DNA of 64,000 nt from the NCBI GenBank assembly GCA_029203125.1, contig CP119317.1, forward strand, positions 1,704,261-1,768,260, read 5' to 3'. Shown piece by piece: positions 13,445 to 31,759 of the stretch (position 1 is its first letter; every line of letters starts with the position of its first letter). Position numbers and translations under genes: made by a program. The notes under the pieces were generated by a model. It was not told where the DNA came from. It searched no databases and was given only the letters and a program-made list of their open reading frames with translations. The DNA is from Candidatus Cohnella colombiensis. Lineage in GTDB: Bacteria; Bacillota; Bacilli; Paenibacillales; Paenibacillaceae.

Positions 13445-13527
13445 TGTAAATGGAATGATTTTCACTCCTTTGAGAAAAGCTACCATTGTAACCATCCCAT
13501 CTCTTGTTATCAAAAGGAGTCCTTGCA

Positions 13528-15063
13528 ATGAGTAGTCAGCTTCCGCAATTTCCACAATCGTATTGGACAACGTCGGTTGACGTCCCTGCATTCCCTATTC
13601 TTACTACAGACCTGGATGCAGATGTCGTTATTGTAGGCGCAGGAATTACCGGCATAACAACTAGCTATTTACTGTCCAAAGAAGGTCTAAAGGTGGTTGT
13701 ACTAGAGGCAGGCCGATTGCTTCACGGAACGACAGGTCACACCACGGCCAAAATCACTGCTCAGCACGATTTGATCTACGATGAACTCATTCAACACTTC
13801 GGCGAAGATAAGGCACGTTTATATTATGACGCAAACAACGAAGCGTTGACTTTTATTCGGAACACTGTTGATACGGAAGGAATCTCCTGTGACTTGACCA
13901 ATGATCATGCTTATATTTACACACAATCAACAAGCTCGATTGGCAAGCTTGAATTAGAATATCGTGCATACGAGAAACTCGGAATCGACGGCCTTCTCAC
14001 CAATCATATCGAATTGCCCATAGATGTTAAATCTGCCTTAGTCATGTATAATCAAGCGCAATTTAATCCCGTTTCATACTTAGTTGCGTTGATCGATCGA
14101 TCTGTTCGTGCAGGTGCACAAGTGTATGAACATACGACAGCGATGAAGGTGGTAGAAGGAGAGAAGCCTGTAGTCATTACCGAATCGGGACATCGGATCA
14201 GCTGCAAGTATGTCATCGCCGCATCGCATTTTCCATTTCTCGATTGGAAAGGTTTTTACTTTGCACGCTTGCATGCAGAACGTTCTTATTTGCTTGGCGT
14301 TCGTGTCAAAGATCGCTATGAAGGTGGGATGTACATTTCGGCGGACGAACCGAAACGATCGATTCGCGTCGTCCATCAAGAAAAAGAGCCTTTATTACTC
14401 ATCGGAGGCGGGGGTCACAAGGCTGGACAGAACAGCTGTACGATGAATGAATATGACGCATTGAAGACGTTCGCTTATTCTGTATTTGATGTAAAAGAAA
14501 TTGCCTATCGGTGGTCAGCTCAAGATCTTGTTACTTTGGACAAAATTCCTTATATCGGACAAATCAACGGACAAAACCACAATATTTTAATTGCAACTGG
14601 ATATCGCAAATGGGGCATGACGAACGGGACTGCTGCGGCCCATCTCCTTAAAAACAGAATACTCGGAATCGAGGACCGGTATCGGGAATTATTTGATCCT
14701 TCACGCTTCCATGCAGACCCGGAGATCAAGAGCTTAGTCACTGAGAACTTGGATGTAGCCAGTCACCTGATCAATGGAAAGCTTGAATCTGTACAACGTC
14801 GTGCGAATAGTGTTGAAAATGACGAAGGTGCAGTCGTTAGTGTGAATGGAAAAAGAGCTGGAGCATACCGTGATGTTGAAGGTGTTCTGCACTTGGTCGA
14901 TACGACTTGTACGCATATGGGTTGCGAGACGAACTGGAATAATGGGGATCGAACATGGGATTGCCCATGTCACGGATCGAGATTTTCCTATACGGGAGAA
15001 GTCATAGAAGGCCCGGCTAAAGAACCTCTGCATAAGTTGGAGCTTTCTTATGAAGATGGATGA
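13528..15063 (+). CDS. FAD-dependent oxidoreductase fused to a C-terminal Rieske [2Fe-2S] domain (B. subtilis YhfW-like)
   Basis: VIVGAGITG dinucleotide fold and a C-terminal CTHMGC-x17-CPCHGS Rieske motif. An AAGGAG RBS lies 8 nt before ATG 13528. Confidence 0.85.
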   Translation: MSSQLPQFPQSYWTTSVDVPAFPILTTDLDADVVIVGAGITGITTSYLLSKEGLKVVVLEAGRLLHGTTGHTTAKITAQHDLIYDELIQHFGEDKARLYYDANNEALTFIRNTVDTEGISCDLTNDHAYIYTQSTSSIGKLELEYRAYEKLGIDGLLTNHIELPIDVKSALVMYNQAQFNPVSYLVALIDRSVRAGAQVYEHTTAMKVVEGEKPVVITESGHRISCKYVIAASHFPFLDWKGFYFARLHAERSYLLGVRVKDRYEGGMYISADEPKRSIRVVHQEKEPLLLIGGGGHKAGQNSCTMNEYDALKTFAYSVFDVKEIAYRWSAQDLVTLDKIPYIGQINGQNHNILIATGYRKWGMTNGTAAAHLLKNRILGIEDRYRELFDPSRFHADPEIKSLVTENLDVASHLINGKLESVQRRANSVENDEGAVVSVNGKRAGAYRDVEGVLHLVDTTCTHMGCETNWNNGDRTWDCPCHGSRFSYTGEVIEGPAKEPLHKLELSYEDG

Positions 15064-17380: not shown

Positions 17381-17408
17381 AAAGGCTACCGACTTCGGTA
17401 GCCTTTTT
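17381..17408 (+). terminator. rho-independent terminator
   Basis: AAAGGCTACCG ACTT CGGTAGCCTTT followed by TT. Confidence 0.8.
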
Positions 17409-17465
17409 ACATGCGACAACCGAGTTGTACATATATATAGGAAATGAACAGAGGAGGTACAAACG

Positions 17466-18209
17466 ATGGTTCGTACGAGGGCGATGAAGCTGTTGGGGCT
17501 AATTTCGGGAATTGTGCTCCTCAATATAATCACATGGTCACCAGGTTTATTAGCGGTTGAAATCGGAGGGAAGAGTGCTTTTCAGACGGCATTAGGCGTT
17601 ACCATCGTGTTTAGCAGTTTTTTAGTACTCATGTATGGGAGCTACACGATGCTACTAAAGCCTCCTATCGTTACACCCATTAAAGACATTACCTCATCTA
17701 CTGATTATAGAGCGGCACTTAATCGATACAAAAATGAGAAAGACCTGAATTCCGATATCCTTCTCGCCTTAGATCAGCTTGATCGCATAGAGAAGAAGAA
17801 CGCTATTCTGCTCGATATCCTTAATCAGAGGTTTGATCCATCAGAATTAAGCTACAAGAAGTTTATTGCGGTCATTCACGATGTGGAAAATTTATTTTAC
17901 TTCAACATCAGGAAGATGCTCAATAAGCTGAGTGTGTTCGATGCCTCCGAGTATTCCAATCTCACGAGCTCTTTACGGTTTAAACAAATTTCAAACAATC
18001 TGCTTCAAAAAAAGCAGGAGCTTTATATGGAGTACCTCGCTTTTGTAACTGCCCAAGTTAGTGCGAATGAACAAATTTTACTGAAGCTAGAACAGCTACT
18101 GATGGAGATATCACAATTAGGCAGTGCCAATGATGAAGATGTAGACCATTTACCCTGCATGCAGGAGATCGATGCTTTAATCAAGCAAACAAAATTTTAT
18201 CAGCAATGA
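17466..18209 (+). CDS. XpaC-like (5-bromo-4-chloroindolyl phosphate hydrolysis family) membrane protein, tentative
   Basis: Two N-terminal TM helices plus a coiled-coil tail. Lies in an operon with a TelA-family gene, like the xpaC-yaaN pairing in B. subtilis. Confidence 0.45.
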   Translation: MVRTRAMKLLGLISGIVLLNIITWSPGLLAVEIGGKSAFQTALGVTIVFSSFLVLMYGSYTMLLKPPIVTPIKDITSSTDYRAALNRYKNEKDLNSDILLALDQLDRIEKKNAILLDILNQRFDPSELSYKKFIAVIHDVENLFYFNIRKMLNKLSVFDASEYSNLTSSLRFKQISNNLLQKKQELYMEYLAFVTAQVSANEQILLKLEQLLMEISQLGSANDEDVDHLPCMQEIDALIKQTKFYQQ

Positions 18210-18222
18210 AAGGGAGATGAGT

Positions 18223-19911: not shown

Positions 19912-19938
19912 CTTTGGAACTCATGAGGAGGGGTAATA

Positions 19939-21078
19939 TTGTCATTTTCAATGGATGTCGTCAAACCTGAAGAAATTCGCTCAACGATTGAAGCAGAGGT
20001 AAAGCCTGAGCCTGAAGAAGTACAACAGCTTAAAGCATTAGCCGCAAACAATGTGTCATTGATTCTTGAAATGGACATCGAGTCCGTCGAAAAAAGGCAA
20101 GAGGTATTGCAATCGATTGATCGATTCGGAATGAACTCGATGCGGTCATCTTCAGAAAAAAATTCACTCCTGCAAGTTTCAGTCGGAAATTTATCGAAGA
20201 CAGGCGATGAGGGTGGTCAAGTCGCCAAAGGATTAACCGAGCTACAGCTTCAATTGAAGGATTTGGATCCAAGTGTAGTGGATTTTGCCAAGAGTGGTTT
20301 TCTAGGTAAGTTTTTCAATCCTTTGCGAACTTATTTTGCCAAGTACCAAAAAGCAGATTCTATGATCTCAGATATTATTACATCCTTAGATAAAGGGAAG
20401 ACCGTCTTAAAAAATGACAACACCACATTGGAGTTTGAGCAACAGGCGCTACGGGAGCTTACGAAAAAACTGCAAAAGGAAATTCAACTGGGTGTGCTCA
20501 TGGATGAAGAAATTGAGTCTCAGATTGAAGCTGCAAAATCGCGGAATGAAACTGAGGATAAGATCCGATTCATCACAGAGGAAGTATTGTTTCCGCTGCG
20601 CCAACGTGTCATGGACCTGCAACAAATGATGGTCGTCAATCAACAGGGGATTATGGCAATAGAAGTCGTTATTCGAAATAACAAAGAACTCATCAGAGGT
20701 GTAGATCGAGCTAGGAATGTGACCTTTTCGGCACTAAAAATTTCTGTAACCGTCGCAAGTGCGCTTTACAATCAAAGAATTGTTTTAAAGAAGATCGAAC
20801 TGCTCAATCATACGACTGACACTCTTATTAGCGGCACTTCAAAAATGCTAAAGGATCAAGGCGCTGCCATACACAAGCAATCGCTTGAAACGAGTATTTC
20901 TGTTGATACGCTAAAGCAGGCTTTCACAGATGTGTTATCCGCTCTCGATTCTATCAGCACCTATAAACAGGAGGCACTGCCGAAGATGCGAGAGACAATT
21001 AATCAGTTCAGGGAACTGGCAGATTCGGGAGAACAACAAATACAGCGCTTGGAAAAGGGCCACAAGCTGGGGTTATAA
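19939..21078 (+). CDS. TelA / toxic-anion-resistance family protein (YaaN-like)
   Basis: 379-aa all-helical protein. Length and sequence pattern resemble TelA/YaaN. TTG start follows an AGGAGGGG RBS. Confidence 0.7.
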   Translation: MSFSMDVVKPEEIRSTIEAEVKPEPEEVQQLKALAANNVSLILEMDIESVEKRQEVLQSIDRFGMNSMRSSSEKNSLLQVSVGNLSKTGDEGGQVAKGLTELQLQLKDLDPSVVDFAKSGFLGKFFNPLRTYFAKYQKADSMISDIITSLDKGKTVLKNDNTTLEFEQQALRELTKKLQKEIQLGVLMDEEIESQIEAAKSRNETEDKIRFITEEVLFPLRQRVMDLQQMMVVNQQGIMAIEVVIRNNKELIRGVDRARNVTFSALKISVTVASALYNQRIVLKKIELLNHTTDTLISGTSKMLKDQGAAIHKQSLETSISVDTLKQAFTDVLSALDSISTYKQEALPKMRETINQFRELADSGEQQIQRLEKGHKLGL

Positions 21079-21191
21079 TGCTATAATAAGTACGCCAAAC
21101 TCATATTTTACGTACTTTCGGTTTTAAACGGTTTAATAAACCATTAACATCTACTAACTAGATAACATCGAGTAGAAATTACATAATAAGA

Positions 21192-22121
21192 ATGGATGAA
21201 ATGGAAATGTATAGAAATCACATCGTAGAAGAGGTTTATTCGTTACAACTTGAAGCATTCACAATTTGGATGAAGCAATCAGGTTATTCACTAACAACAG
21301 AAAAAGAGTATTTGAGAGAAGTTCGAGACTATTTAAGCACATTAAATGAAATACCCATACAACAATCGAAGAAGATGAACGTTGTCGCGTTTTTAGTATC
21401 TAAACAGAGAACGTCGGGAGACAAAACGAGAAATCGCACTTTGTCAGCGATCAGATCCTTCTATACTGCACTAATCGATTTTGAGCTCACAACGACAAAC
21501 CCGGCATTAGAAGTGAAAAAATCTAAAACAGAGAAGCATAGAAATCCAGTATATTTGGATCAATCAGAGCTTGAGAAAGTACTCACTTATGTTGAAGGAC
21601 GTTATCGTGATCGCAATTTAGCGTTATTTCTTCTTATGGCATATTGCGGTTTGCGAGTAGGTGAAGTTCATCGGATTAATCTATCACACTTTAAGAAGGG
21701 TAAAGGGACTTTAGAGGTGCTTGGAAAGGGGAGAAAGTGGAATGAAATTCCACTGCCACCTCTATTAATCCAATATCTCACGAAAGTTGAAGAGGAGCGA
21801 ATTCAGCCGTACCGTGAAAAGGAAGAAGCGATGTTCGTCTCTCAGAAGGGAAGAAGGCTCTCGATCCGACAAATTCAAAAAATCATTACACAAGTATTCG
21901 AAGGATATAAGAAGAAGCATCCATATAATGCTGATTTGAAGCTGTCTTGTCACAAGCTTCGTCACTCCTTCGCGACGATGCTACTGAATCATAATGTGGA
22001 CATCCGTGTCGTAAAAGAGCTTCTTGGTCACGCTTCAATCGAAACGACGATGATCTATACTCATATTAATGATGAACAAAAGCGTAGTGCCATGACGATG
22101 ATTAATATTCCGCAAACATGA
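21192..22121 (+). CDS. tyrosine recombinase / phage-integrase family (XerC/D-like)
   Basis: N-terminal SAM-like core-binding domain. Catalytic residues lie in [15 protein letters not shown] and [14 protein letters not shown]. The gene is visibly more AT-rich than its neighbours. Confidence 0.88.
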
Positions 22122-22146
22122 ATGCCACTCGCGATGTACAACTGAA

Positions 22147-22187
22147 CCGAGAGAAGGACACTTTTAGAGTGTCTCTCTCGGTTTTTT
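22147..22187 (+). terminator. rho-independent terminator after the recombinase gene
   Basis: CCGAGAGAAGGACAC / GTGTCTCTCTCGG stem followed by TTTTTT. Confidence 0.85.
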
Positions 22188-22289
22188 GCATGGATTACAC
22201 TAGCCGTTCATATATTGGAATTACAACTTCTTGTCCTAGTCATCGTATACTTGGCCGAATTCGAATTTCGATTAGGAGGCTTCTATCTC

Positions 22290-23387
22290 TTGGAACATCT
22301 ATCCATTATGGGCATAGGCACAGCCGTACCGGCTTATTGTCTGGATCAAGAAGACGCTGTGCGCCGAATGAAGCAAGCTTTGAAGGATCGTCCTGAAGAT
22401 GCGAAATGGATGCATCGAATTTTTACTCATTGCGGTGTGAATACACGATATACATGTGAACCCAACCTTCTTGAACGTGCGGATCTTTGCCGTTATGTTC
22501 CCACGACACAGGATACCAATATCCCAACGACTGATGAACGTATGTCCATCTATCAGAAAGAATCTGTTGGATTGGCGCTAGAAGCAGCTCAAAAGGCACT
22601 TGAAGACAGCGGGAATCACCCAAGCGATATTACACATCTGATTACAGTAAGTTGCACGGGTTTATTTCTTCCAGGGCTCGATGCAGAGCTGAGCTGGCAC
22701 CTTGATCTTCGTAGTGATGTACAACGAATTCCGTTAACTTTTATGGGCTGCGCTGCTGGCTTGACTGCACTACGGGTTTCAGAACAGATCGTTCGAAGTA
22801 ATCCGAACGCGACAGTGCTCGTAGTTACAGTGGAATTGTGCAGTCTACATATCCAACCTTCTTTTGAAAAAGAACAACTCTTTACCGCTGCATTTTTCGG
22901 TGACGGTGCTTCAGCATGTGTAGTCGGGACGGCGGATCTTGCAAACAAGGGTATGTTAACGATCCACAAAGCCCAAGAGGTCATCATTCCGAATACTTCA
23001 ACAAAAATGAAATGGACAGTCGGAAATTACGGCTTTCAACTGCAGCTTTCTCCAGAGATACCGCGTATCATCGCTAAAGAAGTGCCGGATGTATTTCGTT
23101 TGTTCTGGGAAGATGAGTCATTGCCAGATTTATGGGCGATTCATCCAGGAGGTAGAGGGATTATCGATTCTCTTCAAGCAAGTTTCGATCTTACTGATGC
23201 ACAAACGGAATCTAGTAGATCGATCCTACACCGATATGGCAATATGTCCTCAGCCACCATTTTGTTTGTGCTGGCTGACATAAGACAACGCTTGCTCGAC
23301 AATGCGGAAGGCGATAAAGATGGCATCGCGCTAGCATTCGGACCCGGTATCACAGCTGAATTGATCCGCTTTTCGTATCATCCATGA
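22290..23387 (+). CDS. type III polyketide synthase (chalcone/stilbene synthase superfamily)
   Basis: Cys-His-Asn triad contexts FMGCAAGLTALR, WAIHPGGRGIID and YGNMSSATILFVL, plus GFGPG-like AFGPGITAE. An AGGAGG RBS (22274-22279) favours TTG 22290 over the ORF-track start at 22215. Confidence 0.9.
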   Translation: MEHLSIMGIGTAVPAYCLDQEDAVRRMKQALKDRPEDAKWMHRIFTHCGVNTRYTCEPNLLERADLCRYVPTTQDTNIPTTDERMSIYQKESVGLALEAAQKALEDSGNHPSDITHLITVSCTGLFLPGLDAELSWHLDLRSDVQRIPLTFMGCAAGLTALRVSEQIVRSNPNATVLVVTVELCSLHIQPSFEKEQLFTAAFFGDGASACVVGTADLANKGMLTIHKAQEVIIPNTSTKMKWTVGNYGFQLQLSPEIPRIIAKEVPDVFRLFWEDESLPDLWAIHPGGRGIIDSLQASFDLTDAQTESSRSILHRYGNMSSATILFVLADIRQRLLDNAEGDKDGIALAFGPGITAELIRFSYHP

Positions 23388-24124
23388 AGTGGGGAAGTCG
23401 ATTTCAACAGCGCTCATCAAAACTCGAGCTTATGGATGATTTTGTAGTAGGTGGAGAACCGCTTCGACATGCTTTACGCCAGTTGCGGACATTAAACCGA
23501 ATTTTCGGAGCTTCAGGTCCAGTATTATACGGAGTCAAGCGCCTTTGGAAGCAATCGGGAACACCTGGCAGCTTAAGCATTCTTGATGTTGGTTCGGGTT
23601 CTGGGGATATTAATCGACATCTACTGAAATGGGCTGACAAACAAGGTGTTCAACTCAAAGTGACTTTAGTGGATGTAACTGACGAAGCTCGAGCCGAGGC
23701 TGAGAGTCTCTTCCGAGATGATCCACGGGTCGAGTTTGTTAAACAAGATCTATTTTTCTTGGGTAACCTTCAAGTGGATGTCGTAACTGCCTCCCAATTC
23801 ATTCATCATTTTCCGCCCGAGCGTTTGCCGTCCATCATTATGCAGATGCTGACTCATTCCCGAATTGGCGTAGTAATTAATGACATTAATCGTCATTGGA
23901 TAGCGTGGATAGCCGTTTGGATGACAACCAGACTTATGTCCCGTAATCGTTATATTCGGCATGACGGTCCATTATCCGTAGCTAAAGGTTTTCGTCGTGC
24001 GGATTTCCACAAAATTTCCAACAAACTGGGAATAACGAATATGATCTGCAGCTGGAGACCGCTTTTTCGTTATGCCGTGATGTTTCCTAAACAAGAAACG
24101 GGAGGCCAGTTTGATGAGAACTGA
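23384..24124 (+). CDS. class I SAM-dependent methyltransferase
   Basis: Motif I ILDVGSGSGD. The ATGA start overlaps the PKS stop. Confidence 0.8.
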   Translation: MKWGSRFQQRSSKLELMDDFVVGGEPLRHALRQLRTLNRIFGASGPVLYGVKRLWKQSGTPGSLSILDVGSGSGDINRHLLKWADKQGVQLKVTLVDVTDEARAEAESLFRDDPRVEFVKQDLFFLGNLQVDVVTASQFIHHFPPERLPSIIMQMLTHSRIGVVINDINRHWIAWIAVWMTTRLMSRNRYIRHDGPLSVAKGFRRADFHKISNKLGITNMICSWRPLFRYAVMFPKQETGGQFDEN

Positions 24125-25250
24125 CTTTGACGCCATCGTGATCGGAGCAGGCGTTGCCGGAAGTTCGATGGCCATTTCATTGGCCAGGCAGGGCTGGCAG
24201 GTCGCACTTATCGATAAAGACTCGTTTCCTCGCCACAAAGCTTGTGGTGAGTTTCTGTCGCCTGAATCTATAGTGTCGTTAAAAGCACTTGAATTGGACA
24301 GTGTTATAGATGAGTTTAGACCACCCGTAATCACAACGGCATGCTTACATACGGAAAGCGTATCACTCAGTATTGCTTTACCTGGTACAGCTATCGGGTT
24401 GAGCCGTTACTCATTAGATTCCTGGCTACAGCAAAAAGCTTTTGAAATTGGGGTTCAAGTGTATACGGGGAGCACGGTGTCAGCGATCGTTGAGACTATT
24501 ATTGGCTATGTTGTTGAAATCTCGTCCAAGGAGGGAAGAGTGCAGCTCTCTTCACGTACTGTGATTGCGGCGTGGGGTCGGCGCCCTTTGAACCGATTAC
24601 AAGCTGCCAGTCAGAAATCTAGCAGCAGAACTTATATCGGTATTAAATCACACTTTACATGCTCTGATTGTGAGCCTATCGTCGATCTTTACTTTTTTCA
24701 AGGTGGCTATTTCGGCATTTCTCCCATAGAAGGAGGACGCTTGAATGTTGCAGCACTCCTGACACATGACACTTTTCATACACTCGGAAGCCCTAATTCC
24801 GTTCAAAGAATTATGGAATATGCTGCAAAGCAAATTCCCGCTCTTCATAGTAGGTTAGAGAGCATCGATCTTGTACCTGGAACACAAGCGGCTACGTCCC
24901 CAGTTATCATTCGTCCTCAGCCTATCGCATGGAATGAGATCGCATGTATTGGCGATGCGGTTGCGGTGATTCCACCTTTTTGCGGAGATGGAATGTCAAT
25001 GGCGCTTCGTTCAGTTGAGCTATGTTCCCCCCTTGCTAACGCCTACCTCAGGGGAGATTGCACGAAAACAGAGTGGAGAAATACTTATACAGAGCAGATC
25101 AAGCATCAGTTTTCTAATCCCCTCAGATGGGGTCGCATCCTTGATCGCCTACTAACAAATCGTAAACTTTCTCCTATATTGCTCCGATTAGGAACATTTG
25201 CACCCGGGATAGCAGAAAAAATGGTTCGAGCGACTAGAGTACGCGGCTGA
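24111..25250 (+). CDS. FAD-dependent oxidoreductase / hydroxylase (geranylgeranyl-reductase-like family)
   Basis: DAIVIGAGVAGS dinucleotide fold, CGEFLSP motif and GDAV..PPFCGDGM. Overlaps the methyltransferase stop. Confidence 0.8.
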   Translation: MMRTDFDAIVIGAGVAGSSMAISLARQGWQVALIDKDSFPRHKACGEFLSPESIVSLKALELDSVIDEFRPPVITTACLHTESVSLSIALPGTAIGLSRYSLDSWLQQKAFEIGVQVYTGSTVSAIVETIIGYVVEISSKEGRVQLSSRTVIAAWGRRPLNRLQAASQKSSSRTYIGIKSHFTCSDCEPIVDLYFFQGGYFGISPIEGGRLNVAALLTHDTFHTLGSPNSVQRIMEYAAKQIPALHSRLESIDLVPGTQAATSPVIIRPQPIAWNEIACIGDAVAVIPPFCGDGMSMALRSVELCSPLANAYLRGDCTKTEWRNTYTEQIKHQFSNPLRWGRILDRLLTNRKLSPILLRLGTFAPGIAEKMVRATRVRG

Positions 25251-25268
25251 ATAGGACGGAGATAGGGG

Positions 25269-26513
25269 ATGCATATGAAACAAAGAGTGGTAGTTACAGG
25301 GATGGGTTGCGTTACACCAATTGGTTTAGACAAGACATCCACCTGGATTAATGCGATGGACGGCGTTTCGGGTATCCAGACGATTTCGAATGATCGCACA
25401 GATGAATTGCCAGTTAAGCTTGTCGCAGAAATTAAGGATTTTCAACCTTTATTGTATATGGACGTTAAAGAAGCGAGAAGAACCGACCGTTTTGTACAGC
25501 TTGCAATTGCTGCAGCCGATGAAGCTGTACAGGATAGTGGCCTAGTTATCGGACATAATGCAGACCCTCTCCGTACAGGAGTGTGGTTAGGCAGTGGAGT
25601 TGGCGGCATAATGACCTTCGAGAAGGGGATGCGAGATGTATTGCAGCATGGCTATGGACGCGTGTCTCCATTTGCACTGACGATGTTCCTTCCTAACATG
25701 GCATCAAGCCGTATTGCCATTCGAACAGGTGCTAGAGGAATTACGGGCTGTACAGTATCGGCATGTGCATCGGGATCTCAGTCCATAGGTGAAGCATTCA
25801 GAGCAATCCAAAGGGGTGATGCAGAGGTCATGATTACGGGTGGTGCAGAAGCTCCAATCTGCTCTATCGGATTAGCCTCGTTTTCCGCGATGCGAGCTTT
25901 GTCCTTACAGACAGAGCCCTCGCAAGGGAGTCGCCCATTTGACAAAAGACGCGACGGATTCGTAATGGGAGAAGGTGCTGGCGTTCTCATATTGGAATCA
26001 TGGGAGCACGCTAAAGCCCGCGGAGCACGAATTTATGCTGAGCTAAGTGGTTATGGATCCTGCGGAGAAGGTTATCATATCGCTGCTCCGCGTCCTGACG
26101 GAAGTGATTGGGCAAGAGCGATAACGTTAGCGATGGAAGATGCTTCGTTAACCTCAGATGAGATTCAGTATATCAATGCTCATGGCACAAGTACGCATCT
26201 CAATGATTTGATCGAAACGAATGCCATTAAAACCGCATTTGGGCAATATGCTTACGATGTAAGTATCAGCTCTACGAAATCGATGACCGGTCATCTCCTT
26301 GGGGCATCGGGTGCAGTGGAAGCGATCTTGTCCATTCTCTCACTAAGAGATAACATTATACCACCAACAATCAATTATAAGGAGCAGGATGATGATCTGG
26401 ATTTGAATTACACGCCTGTTGTGTCTAGACAGAGGCAAGTGGATACGGTTATGTCGAATACGTTTGCCTTCGGTGGACATAACGCCGTACTGATTTTTAG
26501 CAAAATCGGATGA
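25269..26513 (+). CDS. beta-ketoacyl-ACP synthase II (FabF-like)
   Basis: Cys-His-His contexts VSACASGSQ, NAHGTSTHLND and KSMTGHLLGASG; 414 aa. An alternative start is ATG 25275. Confidence 0.9.
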   Translation: MHMKQRVVVTGMGCVTPIGLDKTSTWINAMDGVSGIQTISNDRTDELPVKLVAEIKDFQPLLYMDVKEARRTDRFVQLAIAAADEAVQDSGLVIGHNADPLRTGVWLGSGVGGIMTFEKGMRDVLQHGYGRVSPFALTMFLPNMASSRIAIRTGARGITGCTVSACASGSQSIGEAFRAIQRGDAEVMITGGAEAPICSIGLASFSAMRALSLQTEPSQGSRPFDKRRDGFVMGEGAGVLILESWEHAKARGARIYAELSGYGSCGEGYHIAAPRPDGSDWARAITLAMEDASLTSDEIQYINAHGTSTHLNDLIETNAIKTAFGQYAYDVSISSTKSMTGHLLGASGAVEAILSILSLRDNIIPPTINYKEQDDDLDLNYTPVVSRQRQVDTVMSNTFAFGGHNAVLIFSKIG

Positions 26514-28552
26514 TATACCGCAGACTAGCCTCTATTTCGATCAAGTTTTCCACTTGGGTCATAGGCTTTTGGGTCGTTCTGACGTGTTTCTTTGTTCCAT
26601 TTGCAGCACAGCTACCCTACGTTCTAGGCGATCATGGGTTAGTGACTGACGGGTCATATTCACAAGTTCAACAGATTCTATCCCAACAGTTTCATATGCC
26701 AGAAGAACCTATTATTCTTCTATTCGAGAATGATAAAGAAATGCCTAGACGTACATTTCATTCCTTGATCAAGCGAACTTTAACGCAGATAGAACGAATT
26801 GGAGGCGTTCATGTTTCATCCTCACCGCTTGAACAGAAGGAGATGGAGAAGGGCAATATTGCTTATGCTCTCCTTTCTGTACCTAACTCCATTCAGGAGA
26901 AGAGACAAGCCATAAAGCAAATACGTGAAGCGATTTCAGTAGATCGTAAAATCAGTATCAAACTTACTGGAAAGCCAGTCATACAAGAAGATGTGAACCG
27001 CTTAAGCAAGTACGACTTGAAGAGGGCAGAAAGAATCGGTATTCCCATTGCATTTATCATATTAGTAATGACTTTAGGAGGACTTTTATCTGCGATCATT
27101 CCCATTGTTGCTGGAGCAATGACTGTGGTCATCGCGATGGGAATCATGGATGTGATCGGGGATTACGGTGGCGTGTCTTTGTCCGTCTTTGTTTACAGTG
27201 TAATTCCAATGGTAGGGATGGCCGTATGCATCGATTTTGCTCTGCTAATGATCAGTAGGTTCAAGGAAGAAAATAGGCATTTACCCGCTAACGAAGCTCT
27301 ACTAATAACGATGGCTACTTCAGGTAGAGCGATTGTCATTTCTGTAGGTTGCGTCATTATGGCATTACTTGGAACGCTATATATACGTATGCCCATCTTC
27401 AATACGGTTACACTTGGTACACTTGTTGTTCTTACCGTTTCACTGATGATCAATCTGATATTTGTTCCAGCTCTGCTCTATAGGCTTCGAAAACAGCTTT
27501 ATTCCAGTCGAAAAGATAAATTTAAACAGAAGGGCAGAAGTCTATGGATGGCCTTCATTTACTTCATCATGAGATGGCCCCAAGCTTCTGCAATATTGGC
27601 GATAATAATTTTGTCGGTTAGCTTATATCCTGTTCTCACGATGCAAATTGGAATCCCTGGTCCAGAGTCGCTGCCCAAAAATAACGAAGCTCGTATTGCA
27701 TCAGAAAAGCTAGCGAAGTGGTTTGAATCTCCGTTTGTTTCTAACGTATGGATAATCGCAAAGGATAAAAATCAAGAAATTCAACAAGACATCCTGCGCA
27801 CTCTTGAGCAGGACTCCAGAGTTATTCATGTCGATGCAGTCAGGTCATATGTAAACAAGGAAACAACCTTCATTAATGTGTGGCTACAAGGAAATGAATC
27901 ATCTAGAGAAGTGAGAGAATGGATTCTTGAACGATCAAACCAATTCGCCATGCTAGGCGTTCAAATAGGTGGGGAGCCGAAGTATAAACAGGAAATAGTT
28001 GATGAGGTTTTTTATCGATTGAAATATGTTCTATTTATCGTAATCTGCTCTAACTGGATCATATTGACTATCGCTTTTCGTTCATTGCTCATTCCATTGA
28101 AAGCGATCGTAATGAATCTAGTTAGCATATTCGCATCGTTTGGCATCCTTACGTGGATATTTCAAGAAGGCAAGTTAGGAATGGAGACTTCAAATATTGC
28201 GATTATGATTCCTATATTTATATTTGGTTTGACCTTCGGAATCAGTATGGATTATGGCATCTTTCTGCTATCTCGAATCTATGAGGGATATAAAAATTCA
28301 TTAGATAACGAGCATTCGATTAGGGAAGGGCTCGCGGTTTCGGGGAAAATTATCACTTCAGCGGCAGCCATCATGATCGCAGTAACAGCCCCGTTTGCTC
28401 TAGCCGAAGTCTCAGGAGTAAGACAGCTTGGAATTGGCATCGCAATCGCAATATTTTTGGATGCTACAATCGTCCGTATGGTGTTAGTGCCTGCTTTAAT
28501 GAAATGGTTTGGAAAGTGGAACTGGTGGTCGCCATTTAACAAAAAACTGTAA
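26510..28552 (+). CDS. MMPL-family (RND superfamily) lipid exporter
   Basis: 680 aa arranged as two blocks of 6 TM helices, each with an extracytoplasmic loop. The ATGA start overlaps the KAS stop. Confidence 0.8.
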   Translation: MIYRRLASISIKFSTWVIGFWVVLTCFFVPFAAQLPYVLGDHGLVTDGSYSQVQQILSQQFHMPEEPIILLFENDKEMPRRTFHSLIKRTLTQIERIGGVHVSSSPLEQKEMEKGNIAYALLSVPNSIQEKRQAIKQIREAISVDRKISIKLTGKPVIQEDVNRLSKYDLKRAERIGIPIAFIILVMTLGGLLSAIIPIVAGAMTVVIAMGIMDVIGDYGGVSLSVFVYSVIPMVGMAVCIDFALLMISRFKEENRHLPANEALLITMATSGRAIVISVGCVIMALLGTLYIRMPIFNTVTLGTLVVLTVSLMINLIFVPALLYRLRKQLYSSRKDKFKQKGRSLWMAFIYFIMRWPQASAILAIIILSVSLYPVLTMQIGIPGPESLPKNNEARIASEKLAKWFESPFVSNVWIIAKDKNQEIQQDILRTLEQDSRVIHVDAVRSYVNKETTFINVWLQGNESSREVREWILERSNQFAMLGVQIGGEPKYKQEIVDEVFYRLKYVLFIVICSNWIILTIAFRSLLIPLKAIVMNLVSIFASFGILTWIFQEGKLGMETSNIAIMIPIFIFGLTFGISMDYGIFLLSRIYEGYKNSLDNEHSIREGLAVSGKIITSAAAIMIAVTAPFALAEVSGVRQLGIGIAIAIFLDATIVRMVLVPALMKWFGKWNWWSPFNKKL

Positions 28553-28737: not shown

Positions 28738-29157
28738 TTAAGGCTGTTGCCCCTGATACACCATCTGCTGGCCAGGCTGCATAGTCGTTGTCATCTCTGA
28801 ATAGGTCTTTTGACAAGCCATGTTAGAAATACGAGGTATAGTTACGATTTCACTTGGATTCAATTGGTTCGGATTTGTAAGGTGGGGATTAGCCTCCTCC
28901 AAAATGGAAAATGGGATGTTATATTTGTGACTAATAGCAGCCAACGACTCGCCAGGTTGGGCTTGGTGCTGCACGAATATCATGTCATCCGATTTACCAT
29001 CTCTGAAAAATGAAAAAAAGAAAGGAGAGAAGGAGAAAAACGGAAATAAGAAACGGTTAGGGAAAAAAGGATGGGGAAAAGGACGAAAAAAGGGGCGACC
29101 GAATCCTCCACCAAAACCTCCGCCAAAGCCACCACCGGGAAAAAAACCACGATCCAT
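28738..29157 (-). CDS. LysM-domain protein with a Gly/Phe/Pro low-complexity N-terminus (spore-coat-like candidate)
   Basis: N-terminus MDRGFFPGGGFGGGFGGGFGRPFFRPFPHPFFP.., followed by a LysM-like segment (VQHQAQPGESLAAISHKYNIPFSILEEANPHL...IVTIP). GGTGGAGG RBS. Confidence 0.65.
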   Translation of the reverse strand: MDRGFFPGGGFGGGFGGGFGRPFFRPFPHPFFPNRFLFPFFSFSPFFFSFFRDGKSDDMIFVQHQAQPGESLAAISHKYNIPFSILEEANPHLTNPNQLNPSEIVTIPRISNMACQKTYSEMTTTMQPGQQMVYQGQQP

Positions 29158-29232: not shown

Positions 29233-30111
29233 TCATCTAATCCGTTCGATAAAACTTCTTGCCGCACTGGTAAGCGGCATATTTCGCATGATCATAATCC
29301 CCACATGAGAGGGCGGCAACGGTACATCTAATTGGATCTCGAAGAGAGAGCCCTCATCCAGCTCCTTCGAAACGAATTCCCTGGTTACGTAAGAGATCCC
29401 GAGACCTCTCTTCGCAAACTCAATGAGAAGATCTACGCTTCCTACCTCGATTTCAGGTTTGAGCGTAAGACCGTAGCTTTGAAAGATTTCAGTAATCGCC
29501 ATTCGAGCACGGCTATTCCGTGAGAACAGGATGACAGGATGCTGGAGCAGCATATTCAGCGATAGAACTTTGTCCTTAAGCTCCGCGTACCTTGCTCCCG
29601 CCACAAAACAATCCTGTAGTTGAAAGCTCTCCCGCACTTCAAGCTGAGAATCAATGATCGGCATGCGAACGACACCAAGGTCGATCCTGCCTTCTTTTAA
29701 GAAAGTGATGACTTCAGGCGTCGTTCCGTGATTCAGGTGTAGCTTGATACCTGGATGTTGCTGATGAAAGTCTTCCAGATAAGGAAGCAAATAATGCTTA
29801 AACAACGAATCGCTTCCGCCGACCCGCAGCTCGCCGCTGTCCAAATTTTTAAGTGCAGCCATTTTTTCTTCCGCCATCGTGATTAAGATTTGAGACTGCT
29901 CGATATAGGAATACAGAATTATACCTTCTTGAGTTAGCTCCACACCTTTGGCATTCCGATAAAACAACGTGTTACCGAAGCTGTATTCCAGCTGTTTGAT
30001 TGCATGGCTAACACTCGGTTGAGTGATGAATAGCGCCTTGGCAGCCTGGGTCAAGCTTCCCGTTTTCGCCGCCCAATAAAATACTTTGTACAACTCATAA
30101 TTATTAATCAT
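29233..30111 (-). CDS. LysR-family transcriptional regulator
   Basis: HTH LTQAAKALFITQPSVSHAIKQLE; 292 aa. Divergent from zwf. Confidence 0.88.
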   Translation of the reverse strand: MINNYELYKVFYWAAKTGSLTQAAKALFITQPSVSHAIKQLEYSFGNTLFYRNAKGVELTQEGIILYSYIEQSQILITMAEEKMAALKNLDSGELRVGGSDSLFKHYLLPYLEDFHQQHPGIKLHLNHGTTPEVITFLKEGRIDLGVVRMPIIDSQLEVRESFQLQDCFVAGARYAELKDKVLSLNMLLQHPVILFSRNSRARMAITEIFQSYGLTLKPEIEVGSVDLLIEFAKRGLGISYVTREFVSKELDEGSLFEIQLDVPLPPSHVGIMIMRNMPLTSAARSFIERIR

Positions 30112-30232
30112 AGATGTAGTCTATAGCTCCTCTAAAATATATTAATTACATGTATGACCTCTATTCGTATTATAGTTAAACTACAACAAAGATACCAGAG
30201 CTTGCACGAGCTCTAATCGAGGGAGAATAAAG

Positions 30233-31759
30233 ATGGAACCGACTACTTTTATCTTGTTCGGGGCAACGGGGGATTTAGCTAAAAGGAAAATATACCCTGC
30301 CCTATATAATTTATTCATTGACGGAAAGCTGCCACAAGCATTTTCTTTAGTGGGACTTGGAAGAAGAGAATGGACGGATGAAACGTTTCAAGCTAACGTT
30401 GAGCATTCACTTCACCAATTTTCCAGACGAAACGCGAAAGATGCCGGATTAGTCAATCGATTTTTGAGTGCATTCCGTTACAGCGTATTGGATATTGGAC
30501 ATAAAGACGATTACCGAAAGCTGTCTGAGCTGATTAAACAGCGGGAAGATGAGCTTCAAATGCCACCGAATCGCTTGTATTATTTATCCGTTGGACCTGA
30601 ATATTTCGAAACGATCGCTGCCAACATCCAGGATAGCGAACTTGGGTCTGCGAACGGTTCGAAGCGTCTCGTCATCGAGAAACCTTTCGGCTATGATTTG
30701 CAATCGGCTCGGAATTTAAATGAAAAATTGAGCAAAGCATTCGCAGAAGACGAAATTTACCGTATCGATCATTATCTTGGAAAACCAATTGTTCAGAAGC
30801 TTGAATCACTGCAACAAGCAAATCCAGTCATTCAAGCGATTTGGACTAATAAATACATTGCCAATGTGCAGATTACTGCAAATGAATCGGTCGGGGTCGA
30901 AGAGAGAGCAGGTTATTACGATCATGTTGGCGCCTTGAGAGACATGTTCCAAAACCATATGTTGCAATTGCTGATGATGACGGCGATTCACGTTCCTCAC
31001 GGCAGTACCTCTGAGCAGGTGCGCTTCAAGAAGAAAAAAGTGATGGAAGCTGTTGAACTGTTGCAAAGAGAAGATGTCAGTGCCCACATCATTCGCGGGC
31101 AATACAAGGAAGGTAGCATTCAAGGGAAGCCGGTGATCGGCTATACTTCCGAACCGGGAATCTCGCCAACTTCGATGAACGATACATTTATTGCCGCCAA
31201 ACTTATGATCGACAATAGTTATTGGCGGGGAGTTCCGTTTTATATTCGAACGGGCAAACGTATGAAACAAAAATCGACGAGAATCGTGGTTGAGTTTAGA
31301 GAACCCTTAGAGCAAAATTTATCGACGAACGGTGAGCGAATCGAACCCAATCTACTCGTCATCGAGATTAGCCCTAACGAAAGCATGACACTGCAGCTCA
31401 ATACAAAAAATCCTGGTCATAACGTGGCGTTCAAGCCCATCCATCTCGACCTGCACTCTAAACAAGAAAACTCTCCTGAGGCGTATGAAAATTTGATTCA
31501 CGATGCGTTGCAGGGAGATGGGACATTTTTTGCGCATTGGGATGAGGTCGAGTTGTCATGGCAATGGGTACAGCCTATTCTGGACGCGTTTGCAGAGAAC
31601 AGCGTTCCGCTTCATCCCTATGCTGCGGGAACATATGGTCCTGCAGCGTCCGATGAATTACTTGCGAAGGACGGCTATCATTGGTGGTTTGATGAGCAGC
31701 CTACACAAAATAATGAAATCAAAGAAGGGGTACAATATGCCTACAGTACAAACAATTGA
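30233..31759 (+). CDS. zwf: glucose-6-phosphate 1-dehydrogenase
   Basis: [15 protein letters not shown] motif, RIDHYLGK active-site motif and EKPFG; 508 aa. Confidence 0.93.

What the first reader, a model, noticed from the sequence alone, without database searches (positions are those of the whole stretch)
22290..28552. Five-gene translationally coupled type III PKS operon (PKS, methyltransferase, FAD hydroxylase, KAS II, MMPL exporter): predicted phenolic-lipid/alkylquinone pathway with its own primer supply and exporter
Seen in the sequence:
- The type III PKS has an intact Cys-His-Asn triad.
- Start/stop overlaps link PKS to methyltransferase (ATGA at 23384) and methyltransferase to FAD oxidoreductase (24111-24124).
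- A FabF-type KAS II with its Cys-His-His triad begins 18 nt downstream.
- The KAS II gene is coupled by another ATGA (26510) to a 680-aa MMPL transporter.

Established knowledge: the trio of type III PKS, methyltransferase and flavoprotein hydroxylase is the architecture of the Streptomyces griseus srsABC operon, which makes alkylresorcinols and alkylquinones. The same architecture underlies the mycobacterial polyketide-quinone loci. MMPL proteins export complex lipids.

Inference: the dedicated KAS II may supply or extend an unusual acyl starter, and the MMPL protein may place the phenolic lipid in the envelope. In an endospore former the product could be a membrane or spore-associated quinone-like lipid. 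I do not know of a characterised Bacillales example with this five-gene layout; B. subtilis bpsAB has only two genes.
Basis: partly seen in the sequence, partly recalled or inferred. Interest (0 to 1): 0.68.

Follow-up and report, generated by a model that had tools for sequence, protein, structure and literature searches.

The report
Sporulation-linked phenolic-lipid operon with exporter
This is an intact five-gene operon, conserved in Paenibacillus-family spore formers, that most likely makes a long-chain phenolic lipid, tailors it and exports it, and its conserved promoter suggests it is switched on in the mother cell during spore formation.

Summary
Five tightly packed, same-strand genes at 22290-28552 encode a type III PKS, a soluble SAM methyltransferase, an FAD oxidoreductase, a FabF-type KAS II and a 12-TM MMPL transporter, all with intact catalytic residues.

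In 80 related genomes the conserved core is four genes: PKS-MT-FAD in 77 loci and MMPL directly downstream in 66. The KAS II occurs only in one Cohnella clade plus P. eucommiae, and is a diverged paralogue lineage rather than housekeeping FabF.

The MT and flavoprotein are distant collinear homologues of the hidABC-type alkylresorcinol operons of cyanobacteria and planctomycetes. They do not match srsABC or bpsAB, whose methyltransferase is a membrane ICMT enzyme.

Two things are new. A conserved sigma-E-type promoter followed by a SpoIIID-type box precedes the operon across the family. A YhfW-like FAD+Rieske gene flanks the operon in 22 loci; in this window it lies 7 kb away.

Best reading: a mother-cell-expressed alkylresorcinol-derived methoxyphenol or quinone lipid, exported by the MMPL. 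The product and the regulation are inferred, not shown. I found no characterised example. This is a new variant of a known kind, of moderate interest.

The parts
22144..22187 (+). Intrinsic terminator ending the upstream tyrosine-recombinase gene. It marks the 5' boundary of the operon.
   Evidence: A G+C-rich hairpin followed by a T run. MFE -29.3 kcal/mol against -15.5 for shuffles, z = -4.83.
22188..22216 (+). Sigma-E-like promoter: -35 GCATGGA (22188-22194), a 14-nt spacer, -10 CATATATT (22209-22216).
   Evidence: It is positionally equivalent to the TCATAWW-N14-[AC]ATA[CG]A element upstream of the orthologous operons. Against GC-matched intergenic controls, a score of 12 or more is reached in 51% vs 9% of regions, and 13 or more in 27% vs 1.1%. 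No other sigma consensus tested is clearly enriched. The window copy scores only 11/15, so it is weak on its own.
22229..22238 (-). SpoIIID-like box. The reverse complement, TAGGACAAGA, matches the B. subtilis consensus TAGGACAAGC at 9 of 10 positions. It lies 13 nt downstream of the -10 element.
   Evidence: C[AT]TGTCC is found upstream of the PKS in 48 of 81 loci, against 58 of 1169 control windows. It sits at a fixed 11-18 nt after the -10 element. The 29-nt element at 22208-22236 is unique in the window and conserved in 8 Cohnella loci.
22290..23387 (+). Type III polyketide synthase, 365 aa, with a TTG start.
   Evidence: Chal_sti_synt_N and Chal_sti_synt_C. Cys154, His285 and Asn318 are invariant. 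Trp242 occupies the CHS Gly256 / PKS18 Leu266 cavity position, as in verified planctomycete alkylresorcinol synthases. The closest relative is 74% identical and comes from Cohnella.
23384..24124 (+). Soluble class I SAM-dependent methyltransferase, 246 aa, HidA-like.
   Evidence: Methyltransf_25. NF004851 scores 151 bits, below its cut-off. There is no transmembrane segment. It is collinear with the Gimesia maris mtr of a hid-type operon. It gives no ICMT match.
24114..25250 (+). FAD-dependent oxidoreductase, 378 aa, HidB-like. Its role as a ring hydroxylase is inferred.
   Evidence: It has GxGxxG, an invariant HKxCGE motif and a GD motif. TIGR02032 (108 bits) and QhpG (98 bits) both score below their cut-offs. 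The AF2 model has pLDDT 86.5, and its best fold matches are phenolic halogenases, GGR and PqsL. The halogenase WxWxIP motif is replaced by YFGISP. It is collinear with G. maris fdo.
25269..26513 (+). FabF-type KAS II paralogue, 414 aa (412 aa if it starts at ATG 25275).
   Evidence: TIGR03150 scores 573 bits. It has Cys166, His305, His342 and Lys337. It belongs to a discrete clade at 63-80% identity, in which every member whose context I examined is operon-linked. After that there is a gap to 57% or less for Bacillaceae FabF. It carries 21 clade-specific substitutions at positions conserved in housekeeping FabF.
26510..28552 (+). MMPL-family RND transporter, 680 aa.
   Evidence: PF03176 matches twice. 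A hydropathy profile suggests a 1+5 / 1+5 transmembrane layout with two loops of about 130-145 aa. An MMPL gene lies directly downstream of the FAD or KAS gene in 66 of 80 loci.
13504..15063 (+). YhfW-like FAD (DAO) + Rieske [2Fe-2S] oxidoreductase. It is a probable detached accessory gene of the pathway.
   Evidence: Its orthologue lies directly after the MMPL gene in 11 of the 13 KAS-carrying loci fetched in the genome scan (all Cohnella), and directly before the PKS gene in 11 other loci. B. subtilis YhfW, which has the same architecture, is SigF-regulated, spore-associated and affects germination. Orthology to YhfW was not tested.

Best explanation
This is a self-contained biosynthesis-and-export operon for a long-chain phenolic lipid, probably expressed in the mother cell during sporulation.

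Steps shown by sequence: five intact, tightly coupled genes encode a type III PKS, a soluble SAM methyltransferase, an FAD oxidoreductase, a FabF-type condensing enzyme and an MMPL transporter.

Inferred mechanism:
1. RNA polymerase carrying sigma-E starts transcription at about 22220. A SpoIIID-type box just downstream of the -10 element modulates expression, probably shutting it off later.
2. The FabF paralogue elongates fatty acyl-ACP from the housekeeping FAS II, setting the chain length or supply of the starter.
3. The PKS loads that acyl chain from ACP or CoA and adds three malonyl-CoA units. It then cyclises by aldol condensation to a 5-alkylresorcinol or alkylresorcylic acid.
4. The HidA-like methyltransferase methylates the ring, and the HidB-like flavoprotein oxygenates it. 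The result is a methoxy-alkylphenol, or a hydroquinone that can oxidise to a benzoquinone.
5. The MMPL pump moves the lipid out of the cytoplasmic leaflet into the envelope, or into the space around the forespore.

The four-gene core without the KAS is the ancestral, family-wide form. The KAS is a Cohnella-clade elaboration.
For: Gene content, catalytic residues and coupling.

Conservation:
- PKS-MT-FAD recurs in 77 of 80 loci and MMPL directly downstream in 66 of 80, while the flanks are unrelated.

Link to alkylresorcinol operons:
- The MT and FAD proteins are collinear homologues of G. maris mtr and fdo. The unrelated class I methyltransferase mtr1Sf, included in the same search, gave no hit.
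- The PKSs of those operons were shown experimentally to make alkylresorcinols.
- HidA methylates pentadecylresorcinol in vitro.
- The gene order hidC>hidA>hidB also exists in cyanobacteria.
- Trp242 sits at the same aligned position as the Trp of the verified planctomycete enzymes, in the shared motif M-x-W-x-[IV]-G-[ND]-x-G-F. Per, ArsB Trp281 favours resorcinol formation.

KAS:
- It forms a separate operon-linked lineage with active-site-proximal changes. These include I to V at the position I take (from memory, not checked here) to equal E. coli FabF Ile108, HITAP to HIAAP, and FGFGG to FAFGG.

Promoter:
- Enrichment and fixed geometry across divergent species are shown.
- SpoIIID down-regulates many sigma-E genes (abstract).

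Context:
- Homologous or analogous type III PKS lipids are tied to dormancy in Streptomyces spores, Azotobacter cysts and sporulating Negativicutes.
- A YhfW-like gene is a recurrent neighbour of the operon.
Against: - No product, transcript or phenotype data exist for any member.
- The window's own promoter matches the sigma-E consensus at only 11 of 15 positions, a level reached by about 39% of control intergenic windows. The case rests on family-wide conservation and on a B. subtilis consensus applied to another family.
- The 81 loci are related, so the enrichment statistics overstate independence.
- The Trp marker is unreliable: DquA has it yet makes only pyrones.
- The PKS is only about 30-34% identical to any characterised enzyme I could compare, and is roughly equidistant from plant CHS, PKS18 and the planctomycete enzymes.
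- HidB's hydroxylase role is only proposed, and G. maris fdo showed no activity in co-expression.
- The flavoprotein carries a GGR-like Cys-Gly-Glu motif and could be a reductase.
- I did not directly show a second, housekeeping fabF in this genome.
- The MT and FAD homology to the hid type was tested only through machine-read gene sequences containing frameshifts.
Confidence: 0.6

Rival explanations
1. The pathway makes alkylpyrones rather than resorcinols or quinones. The PKS lactonises tri- or tetraketides, as BpsA, DquA and PKS18 do. The MT methylates the pyrone. The GGR-like flavoprotein acts on the alkyl chain, for example by reducing a double bond, or has another redox role. The MMPL exports the pyrone lipid.
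For: - The characterised Firmicute type III PKSs, BpsA and DquA, give pyrones, and DquA does so despite carrying the 'resorcinol' Trp.
- The flavoprotein's best curated match is the geranylgeranyl-reductase superfamily. It has an invariant xKxCGE motif, which as I recall from memory (not tested here) is typical of those reductases. Sources name distant relatives 'menaquinone reductase'.
- G. maris fdo gave no detectable ring oxidation.
Against: - BpsA-type and DquA-type synthases are always paired with an ICMT methyltransferase. That pairing is absent here.
- The MT-plus-flavoprotein pair is the one found with verified alkylresorcinol synthases.
- The TIGR02032 score of 108.7 is below its cut-off of 158.8.
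Confidence: 0.2
2. The product is a membrane-resident respiratory polyketide quinone, as in mycobacterial and Streptomyces PkQ. It would serve as an alternative electron carrier in low oxygen or dormancy, not as an exported structural or antibiotic lipid. The MMPL protein would only flip or distribute it within the membrane.
For: - The PKS-MT-oxidoreductase order mirrors pkqABC and srsABC.
- PkQ replaces menaquinone in Streptomyces spores.
- The recurrent neighbour carries a Rieske domain whose best matches are the quinol-oxidising b6f/bc1 Rieske subunits.
Against: - In the Srs-type operon the MT is an ICMT-family enzyme, a different family from the one here. I did not test the family of the PkQ methyltransferase.
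- A dedicated RND/MMPL exporter is conserved in 66 of 80 loci. It is not among the three genes described for the PkQ operon.
- No respiratory genes are linked to the operon.
Confidence: 0.12
3. The extra FabF is a self-resistance (target-replacement) copy rather than a biosynthetic enzyme. The product, or an intermediate, would inhibit housekeeping FabF, and the diverged copy would keep fatty-acid synthesis running during production.
For: - The KAS clade differs from housekeeping FabF at positions around the active site and the gating loop, namely HITAP to HIAAP and FGFGG to FAFGG.
- From general knowledge (not tested here), duplicated FabB/FabF genes in platensimycin and thiotetronate clusters act as resistance genes.
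Against: - Most orthologous operons, 66 of 80 loci, lack the KAS, yet carry the same PKS, MT and FAD genes, mostly with the MMPL too. Self-poisoning is therefore not a general property of the pathway.
- To my knowledge, phenolic lipids are not known FabF inhibitors.
- The Cys-His-His-Lys set is intact, which is consistent with normal condensing activity.
Confidence: 0.08

Closest known systems
hidABC hierridin cluster (Cyanobium sp. LEGE 06113) and the planctomycete MT-oxidoreductase-type III PKS operons (e.g. Gimesia maris)
   Same: - The same three enzyme families are present: a type III PKS, a soluble SAM methyltransferase and an FAD oxidoreductase of about 380 aa.
- The MT and FAD proteins are collinear with G. 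maris mtr and fdo.
- The PKS shares the M-x-W-x-[IV]-G-[ND]-x-G-F motif.
- A hidC>hidA>hidB gene order exists in some cyanobacteria.
- Those PKSs make C15-C17 alkylresorcinols, and HidA O-methylates them.
   Different: - Sequence identity is low, with about 27-34% in the alignable pieces.
- No MMPL transporter or KAS is mentioned for those operons in the passages I read (term searches).
- Nothing in those passages links them to sporulation.
- The hosts are Gram-negative.
- The comparison used a planctomycete proxy recovered from a machine-read supplement, not HidA or HidB themselves.
srsABC of Streptomyces griseus and pkqABC of Mycobacterium smegmatis / Streptomyces sp. MNU77 (alkylresorcinol to methoxy-alkyl-benzoquinone)
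   Same: - The gene order is PKS, then methyltransferase, then flavoprotein.
- The predicted chemistry has the same logic: resorcinol, then methylation, hydroxylation and a quinone.
- The pkq cluster is induced 100- to 1000-fold in Streptomyces spores.
   Different: - SrsB-type methyltransferases are annotated as membrane isoprenylcysteine carboxyl methyltransferase family enzymes. The MT here is soluble, class I and of a different family.
- Orthology of the flavoprotein to SrsC or PkqC was not tested.
- Those operons are described as three-gene units, with no KAS II or MMPL among them.
bpsA-bpsB of Bacillus subtilis and dquA-dquB of sporulating Negativicutes
   Same: - They are Firmicute type III PKS lipid loci, restricted to spore formers and proposed to have a sporulation-related membrane role.
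   Different: - They have two genes only.
- The methyltransferase is ICMT-like.
- The products shown are alkylpyrones.
- There is no flavoprotein, KAS or transporter.
arsABCD of Azotobacter vinelandii (cyst alkylresorcinols and alkylpyrones)
   Same: - A type III PKS is coupled to a dedicated fatty-acyl supply enzyme that hands long acyl chains to the PKS.
- The product is a structural lipid of a dormant cell form.
   Different: - The supply enzymes there are type I fatty acid synthases (ArsA/ArsD) with their own ACP. Here there is a single discrete FabF paralogue and no ACP.
- I did not see an MT, flavoprotein or MMPL described as part of it.
Mycobacterial MmpL lipid exporters
   Same: - The MMPL-family RND architecture is the same. 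NCBIfam MmpL3 and actII models match in part.
- As general knowledge, they share the genomic logic of placing the exporter beside the lipid-synthesis genes.
   Different: - This protein is much shorter (680 aa), and scores are far below the MmpL3 equivalog cut-off (212 vs 1400 bits).
- The substrate here is unknown.

Membership tests
Type III polyketide synthase (chalcone/stilbene synthase superfamily) | Chal_sti_synt N- and C-terminal domains scoring above the curated cut-offs | tested here: met
   PF00195 scores 129.6 bits and PF02797 scores 94 bits, each against a cut-off of 27.
Type III polyketide synthase (chalcone/stilbene synthase superfamily) | Cys-His-Asn catalytic triad | tested here: met
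   Cys154, His285 and Asn318 align with the CHS triad and are invariant in the family alignment.
srsABC / bpsAB-type phenolic-lipid operon | The methyltransferase is a membrane isoprenylcysteine carboxyl methyltransferase (ICMT) family enzyme (SrsB, BpsB, DquB) | tested here: not met
   The Pfam hits are class I Methyltransf_25/12/11, with none to ICMT. Maximum 19-residue hydropathy is 1.03, so there is no transmembrane segment.
srsABC / pkqABC-type operon | Gene order PKS, then methyltransferase, then flavoprotein, in one operon | tested here: met
   The order is described for srs and pkq.
srsABC / pkqABC-type operon | The flavoprotein is orthologous to the SrsC/PkqC ring hydroxylase | not tested
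Only membership of the broad FAD_binding_3/DAO superfamily is shown.
hidABC-type (hierridin-like) alkylresorcinol operon | HidA-type soluble SAM methyltransferase and HidB-type FAD oxidoreductase encoded next to the PKS | tested here: met
   Profiles built from the Paenibacillaceae MT and FAD families match G. maris mtr and fdo. Per, those are 48-55% identical to HidA and HidB. The matches are collinear along the whole length: MT positions 2-89, 110-186 and 188-211; FAD positions 4-36, 37-131, 196-236 and 330-371. The unrelated class I methyltransferase mtr1Sf gave no hit. Caveats: this is a proxy sequence, recovered from a machine-read supplement that contains frameshifts, and the scores are modest.
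hidABC-type (hierridin-like) alkylresorcinol operon | The PKS is an alkylresorcinol synthase (aldol cyclisation) | not testable with these tools
   Only a marker residue is available. Trp242 lies at the position of the Trp in the verified planctomycete enzymes. The marker fails for DquA.
Beta-ketoacyl-ACP synthase II (FabF) | Equivalog model above its cut-off, plus the Cys-His-His triad and Lys | tested here: met
   TIGR03150 scores 573.1 bits against a cut-off of 493.75. Cys166, His305, His342 and Lys337 are present.
Housekeeping FabF of the host | Orthologous to the FabF found in all relatives, independent of the PKS operon | tested here: not met
   The protein belongs to a discrete clade at 63-80% identity. 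All 15 members whose context I read lie inside the operon. Cohnella species whose operon lacks the KAS contribute no FabF above 57% identity, where only Bacillaceae FabFs appear. There are 21 clade-specific substitutions. The presence of a second fabF in this genome was not checked directly.
MMPL / RND transporter | Two MMPL repeats and a 12-TM topology | tested here: met
   PF03176 matches in two stretches, 242.6 bits. A crude hydropathy profile is consistent with a 1+5 / 1+5 transmembrane layout.
Flavin-dependent halogenase | WxWxIP motif in addition to GxGxxG | tested here: not met
   These enzymes are the best sequence and fold matches in the PDB. However, the aligned motif is Y-F-G-I-S-P, and Tyr199 and Gly201 are invariant in the family. 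The catalytic Lys was not mapped.
Geranylgeranyl reductase family (TIGR02032) | Score above the curated cut-off | tested here: not met
   The score is 108.7 bits against a cut-off of 158.8. A GGR-like HKxCGE motif is nevertheless invariant.
Sigma-E / SpoIIID mother-cell regulon | Promoter matching (T/G)(A/C)ATA(A/T)(A/T)-N14-CATACA(A/C)T, together with a SpoIIID box | tested here: inconclusive
   At family level the match is strongly enriched and positionally fixed. The window copy scores only 11 of 15, but its SpoIIID-like box matches at 9 of 10. Dependence on sigma-E cannot be tested with these tools.

The most novel reading that the evidence does not exclude
Across Paenibacillaceae, the mother cell makes a methoxylated alkylphenol or alkylquinone lipid under sigma-E/SpoIIID control, and an MMPL pump deposits it in the outer layers of the developing endospore. 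This would be an endospore counterpart of the alkylresorcinol coat of Azotobacter cysts. In the Cohnella clade, a neofunctionalised FabF would set an unusual chain length. A YhfW-like FAD-Rieske enzyme would complete or redox-cycle the head group.
Probability: 0.3. Interest if true: 0.7.

Novelty: new variant of a known kind. Interest (0 to 1): 0.5.

Why it matters
Type III PKS phenolic lipids have been tied to dormancy in three unrelated settings: Azotobacter cysts, Streptomyces spores, and the restriction of bpsAB/dquAB to spore formers. Their role in endospores has never been pinned down.

This operon offers a well-defined and widespread genetic handle:
- At least 80 species-level genomes carry it, and the genome scan found 278 matching stretches.
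- It pairs the biosynthetic genes with a dedicated exporter.
- It has a recognisable mother-cell promoter, so the question can be tested directly with deletions, reporter fusions and spore lipidomics.

It would also give the first substrate assignment for a Firmicute MMPL transporter in this context.

It would provide a natural experiment on how a FabF paralogue reprogrammes the starter unit of a type III PKS, because clades with and without the KAS can be compared.

If none of this holds, it is still an uncharacterised but ordinary 'T3PKS, unknown' cluster of the kind antiSMASH reports in most Paenibacillus genomes.

Tried and rejected
1. Flavin-dependent halogenase. This was attractive because hierridin C chlorination is unexplained and halogenases are the top PDB and fold hits. 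I rejected it because the WxWxIP motif is absent, both here and in G. maris fdo.

2. Mobile island bounded by repeats next to the tyrosine recombinase. No convincing flanking direct repeats were found. The composition shift is only mild.

3. Riboswitch or other known RNA in the leader or the gene junctions. Rfam gave no match at E up to 0.1.

4. Promoter and terminators.
- The generic sigma-70 scan was at the level of shuffled sequence, and sigma-A consensus scores are not enriched upstream of the orthologues.
- Sigma-K, F and G are not enriched; sigma-H only marginally (10% vs 5%).
- There is no clear terminator after the MMPL gene (z = -0.9).

5. Additional conserved pathway genes in the flanks, such as an ACP, acyl-CoA/AMP ligase, thioesterase or regulator. 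None is conserved apart from the FAD+Rieske gene.

6. Direct check of the ArsB Trp281 / ArsC Gly284 position. The Satou et al. paper is not held, and ArsC did not appear among the PDB alignments shown. The equivalence to CHS Gly256 / PKS18 Leu266 therefore rests on spacing (Met293 at +9) and remains an inference.

7. Phylogeny against SrsA, ArsB/C, BpsA, HidC and PkqA. This was not possible because those sequences could not be obtained. Only PDB chains and planctomycete genes were compared.

8. Literature search for a characterised Paenibacillaceae example or for expression data. Only genome reports listing 'T3PKS' clusters turned up.

Full report
**1. Observation**

The region 22290-28552 carries five co-directional ORFs, exactly as described.

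- The PKS starts at TTG 22290, 10 nt after AGGAGG.
- The PKS stop overlaps the methyltransferase start in ATGA at 23384-23387.
- The methyltransferase overlaps the flavoprotein gene by 11-14 nt. That gene starts at ATG 24114 or TTG 24111, and the MT stops at 24124.
- The KAS gene starts 18 nt after the flavoprotein stop, at ATG 25269. A second ATG at 25275 is the start used in the public gene call.
- The KAS stop overlaps the MMPL start in ATGA at 26510.

Pfam and NCBIfam assign the products as follows:
- Chal_sti_synt_N and Chal_sti_synt_C for the PKS.
- A class I SAM methyltransferase: Methyltransf_25, plus NF004851 'PRK06202' at 151 bits, below its cut-off.
- An FAD oxidoreductase: DAO and FAD_binding_3. 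The best curated models are the geranylgeranyl-reductase superfamily and QhpG, both below cut-off.
- FabF: TIGR03150 at 573 bits, above its cut-off.
- An MMPL transporter with two MMPL repeats.

The catalytic residues are intact. The PKS has Cys154, His285 and Asn318, and the KAS has Cys166, His305, His342 and Lys337.

A strong intrinsic terminator at 22144-22187 (z = -4.8) closes the upstream tyrosine-recombinase gene. The next downstream gene is convergent. The five genes therefore form their own transcription unit.

**2. Conservation**

The closest PKS relatives are from Cohnella (74% identity). The family fills Cohnella and Paenibacillus.

A scan of one genome per species found 278 matching stretches. 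I examined the 80 best loci:
- PKS-MT-FAD is present in 77 of 80 loci. Two of the exceptions are cut by contig ends. The third, L077, has the PKS followed directly by the MMPL gene.
- An MMPL gene follows directly in 66 of 80.
- The KAS lies between the FAD and MMPL genes in only 13 of 80. C. candidum adds one more example.

The flanking genes are not conserved between species, so the operon behaves as a self-contained unit.

On a PKS tree the KAS-carrying loci form one Cohnella clade that includes the window. P. eucommiae is a second, separate case.

The ancestral, family-wide unit is therefore four genes.

**3. The KAS**

Its relatives split sharply.
- About 33 proteins are 63-80% identical. 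They come from Cohnella, plus P. eucommiae and P. koleovorans. Every one whose context I read lies inside the operon.
- After that comes a gap, and the next proteins are Bacillaceae housekeeping FabFs at 57% or less.
- Cohnella species whose operon lacks the KAS contribute nothing to the upper group. The housekeeping FabF of the genus must therefore be more distant.

The operon-linked clade carries 21 substitutions at positions that are at least 90% conserved in housekeeping FabFs. Examples:
- Ile to Val at the position I take, from memory, to equal Ile108 of E. coli FabF, an acyl-pocket residue.
- HITAP to HIAAP.
- FGFGG to FAFGG in the gating loop.

This is a neofunctionalised paralogue, not a relocated housekeeping gene. 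I did not, however, directly show a second fabF in this genome.

The operon encodes no ACP, ligase or thioesterase. The starter must therefore come from the cell's own acyl-ACP or acyl-CoA pool. Tuning of chain length or supply is the simplest role for the KAS.

**4. Which known system it resembles**

The gene order is indeed the same as in srsABC and pkqABC. The methyltransferase family is not. SrsB homologues are annotated as isoprenylcysteine carboxyl methyltransferases, and BpsB and DquB are ICMT-like membrane proteins. The enzyme here is a soluble class I methyltransferase with no hydrophobic segment.

A different trio fits better. This is the methyltransferase / FAD oxidoreductase / type III PKS operon known as hidABC in cyanobacteria, which is also found in 58 planctomycete genomes.
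- Its PKSs were shown to make pentadecyl- and heptadecyl-resorcinols.
- HidA O-methylates pentadecylresorcinol in vitro, while HidB is only proposed to hydroxylate the ring.

I recovered the Gimesia maris mtr, fdo and PKS genes from that paper's supplement. Profiles of the Paenibacillaceae MT and FAD families match them collinearly over their full length. An unrelated class I methyltransferase, mtr1Sf, gave no hit in the same search. Scores are modest, and the machine-read sequences contain frameshifts, so this shows distant homology rather than orthology.

The order hidC>hidA>hidB also occurs in cyanobacteria.

**5. The flavoprotein**

Its nearest solved relatives, by sequence and by fold, are phenolic and pyrrole flavin halogenases (Bmp2, Mpy16, CndH, PltA, RadH), geranylgeranyl reductases, PqsL and squalene monooxygenase. 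The AF2 model has pLDDT 86.5.

The halogenase WxWxIP motif is replaced by an invariant Y-x-G-x-x-P, so I reject a halogenase.

An invariant HKxCGE motif resembles the reductases. The family is large, with 449 representative clusters at E below 1e-30, and is generically annotated.

'Ring hydroxylase' therefore remains an inference from pathway logic.

**6. Product**

Trp242 of the PKS is invariant in the family. It aligns with CHS Gly256 and PKS18 Leu266. It also aligns with the Trp of the verified planctomycete alkylresorcinol synthases, within a shared M-x-W-x-[IV]-G-[ND]-x-G-F motif.

ArsB Trp281 and ArsC Gly284, which switch the product between resorcinol and pyrone, very probably occupy this position. 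I could not confirm that. In any case the marker fails for DquA.

The PKS is about 30-34% identical to every characterised enzyme I could compare.

The prediction of an alkylresorcinol that is then methylated and oxygenated therefore rests mainly on the company the PKS keeps. I give it moderate confidence and keep an alkylpyrone pathway as the main rival.

**7. Regulation (new)**

The sequences upstream of the orthologous operons share a three-part element that survives where the rest of the intergenic region is unalignable:
- TCATAWW.
- Exactly 14 nt later, [AC]ATA[CG]A[CT]W.
- A further 11-18 nt later, C[AT]TGTCC.

The first two blocks match the B. subtilis sigma-E consensus (T/G)(A/C)ATA(A/T)(A/T) and CATACA(A/C)T.

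Against GC-matched intergenic controls from the same loci:
- A match of 12/15 or better occurs in 51% vs 9% of regions.
- A match of 13/15 or better occurs in 27% vs 1.1%.
- Mann-Whitney p is about 1e-21.

Sigma-A, K, F and G consensus sequences show no enrichment, and sigma-H only a marginal one.

The third block is the reverse complement of GGACA(A/T)G. In the window it reads TAGGACAAGA against the SpoIIID consensus TAGGACAAGC. It occurs in 48 of 81 upstream regions against 58 of 1169 controls. SpoIIID down-regulates many sigma-E genes.

Caveats:
- The loci are related.
- The consensus comes from another family.
- The window's own -35 and -10 elements score only 11/15, which is unremarkable by itself.

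I rate mother-cell expression as plausible, about even odds, and not shown.

**8. A sixth gene**

A 519-aa FAD (DAO) + Rieske protein is encoded at 13504-15063. Its orthologue sits directly after the MMPL gene in 11 of the 13 KAS-carrying loci fetched in the genome scan (all Cohnella). It sits directly before the PKS gene in 11 other loci.

In Cohnella sp. WQ 127256 the order is: operon, FAD-Rieske, unknown, vWA, TelA. In the window the order is: FAD-Rieske, MFS, DUF2935, unknown, vWA, TelA, recombinase, operon. The operon has therefore been moved relative to its partner, and it now lies beside a tyrosine-recombinase gene.

B. subtilis YhfW has the same architecture. It is SigF-regulated, has been found in spores, and affects germination. 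I did not test orthology.

**9. Verdict**

I correct it on four points:
- the closest known relatives;
- the conserved unit (four genes, plus or minus the KAS, plus or minus the FAD-Rieske gene);
- the certainty of the 'hydroxylase' label;
- the certainty of the 'quinone' label.

It is a new variant of a known kind: a hid-like alkylresorcinol cassette fused to an MMPL exporter. In one clade it also carries a FabF paralogue, and it appears to be wired into the sporulation programme.

I found no characterised example. Interest is moderate.

Noticed in passing
window 13504-15063 (+); L001 16369-17886; L013 8307-9806: A YhfW-like FAD (DAO) + Rieske [2Fe-2S] gene is a recurrent immediate neighbour of the operon. 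It lies after the MMPL gene in 11 Cohnella loci and before the PKS gene in 11 other loci. In this window it is about 7 kb upstream. Its Rieske domain best matches the b6f/bc1-type quinol-oxidising Rieske subunits.
   Followed up: partly
window 16528-22121 compared with L001 18039-21094: The block 'unknown 247-aa protein, vWA/solute-binding protein, TelA' lies downstream of the operon in Cohnella sp. WQ 127256 but upstream of it here, with a tyrosine-recombinase gene (21192-22121) at the junction. This suggests a local rearrangement that moved the operon. No flanking repeats were found.
   Followed up: partly
window 28738-29157 (-): A small protein has a Gly/Phe/Pro-rich N-terminal half and a SafA/ExsA-type LysM domain, so it looks like a spore coat assembly protein. 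It is convergent with the MMPL gene. Weak homologues lie 4-6 kb upstream of the PKS in three Cohnella loci (L005, L010, L052).
   Followed up: no
window 24114-25250; literature on hierridin C: The HidB-like flavoprotein family has phenolic flavin halogenases as its closest solved structures. Separately, the chlorination of hierridin C in Cyanobium is reported as unexplained, with no halogenase found in that genome. The family lacks the WxWxIP motif, so I do not propose it as the halogenase, but the coincidence may merit a biochemical test.
   Followed up: partly
L077 (Paenibacillus vandeheii) 10001-13402: In this species the PKS is followed directly by the MMPL gene, with no methyltransferase or flavoprotein. 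This natural minimal variant could show what the untailored product is.
   Followed up: no
window 29233-34431: Downstream of the operon lie a divergent LysR regulator and then zwf, tkt and tal (pentose-phosphate genes). The listed tkt ORF (31503-33731) overlaps the end of zwf by about 250 nt, so its true start is probably further downstream.
   Followed up: no
window about 58000-64000: GC skew flips sign at about 58 kb (from +0.06 to -0.2), coinciding with a switch of coding strand from + to -.
   Followed up: no
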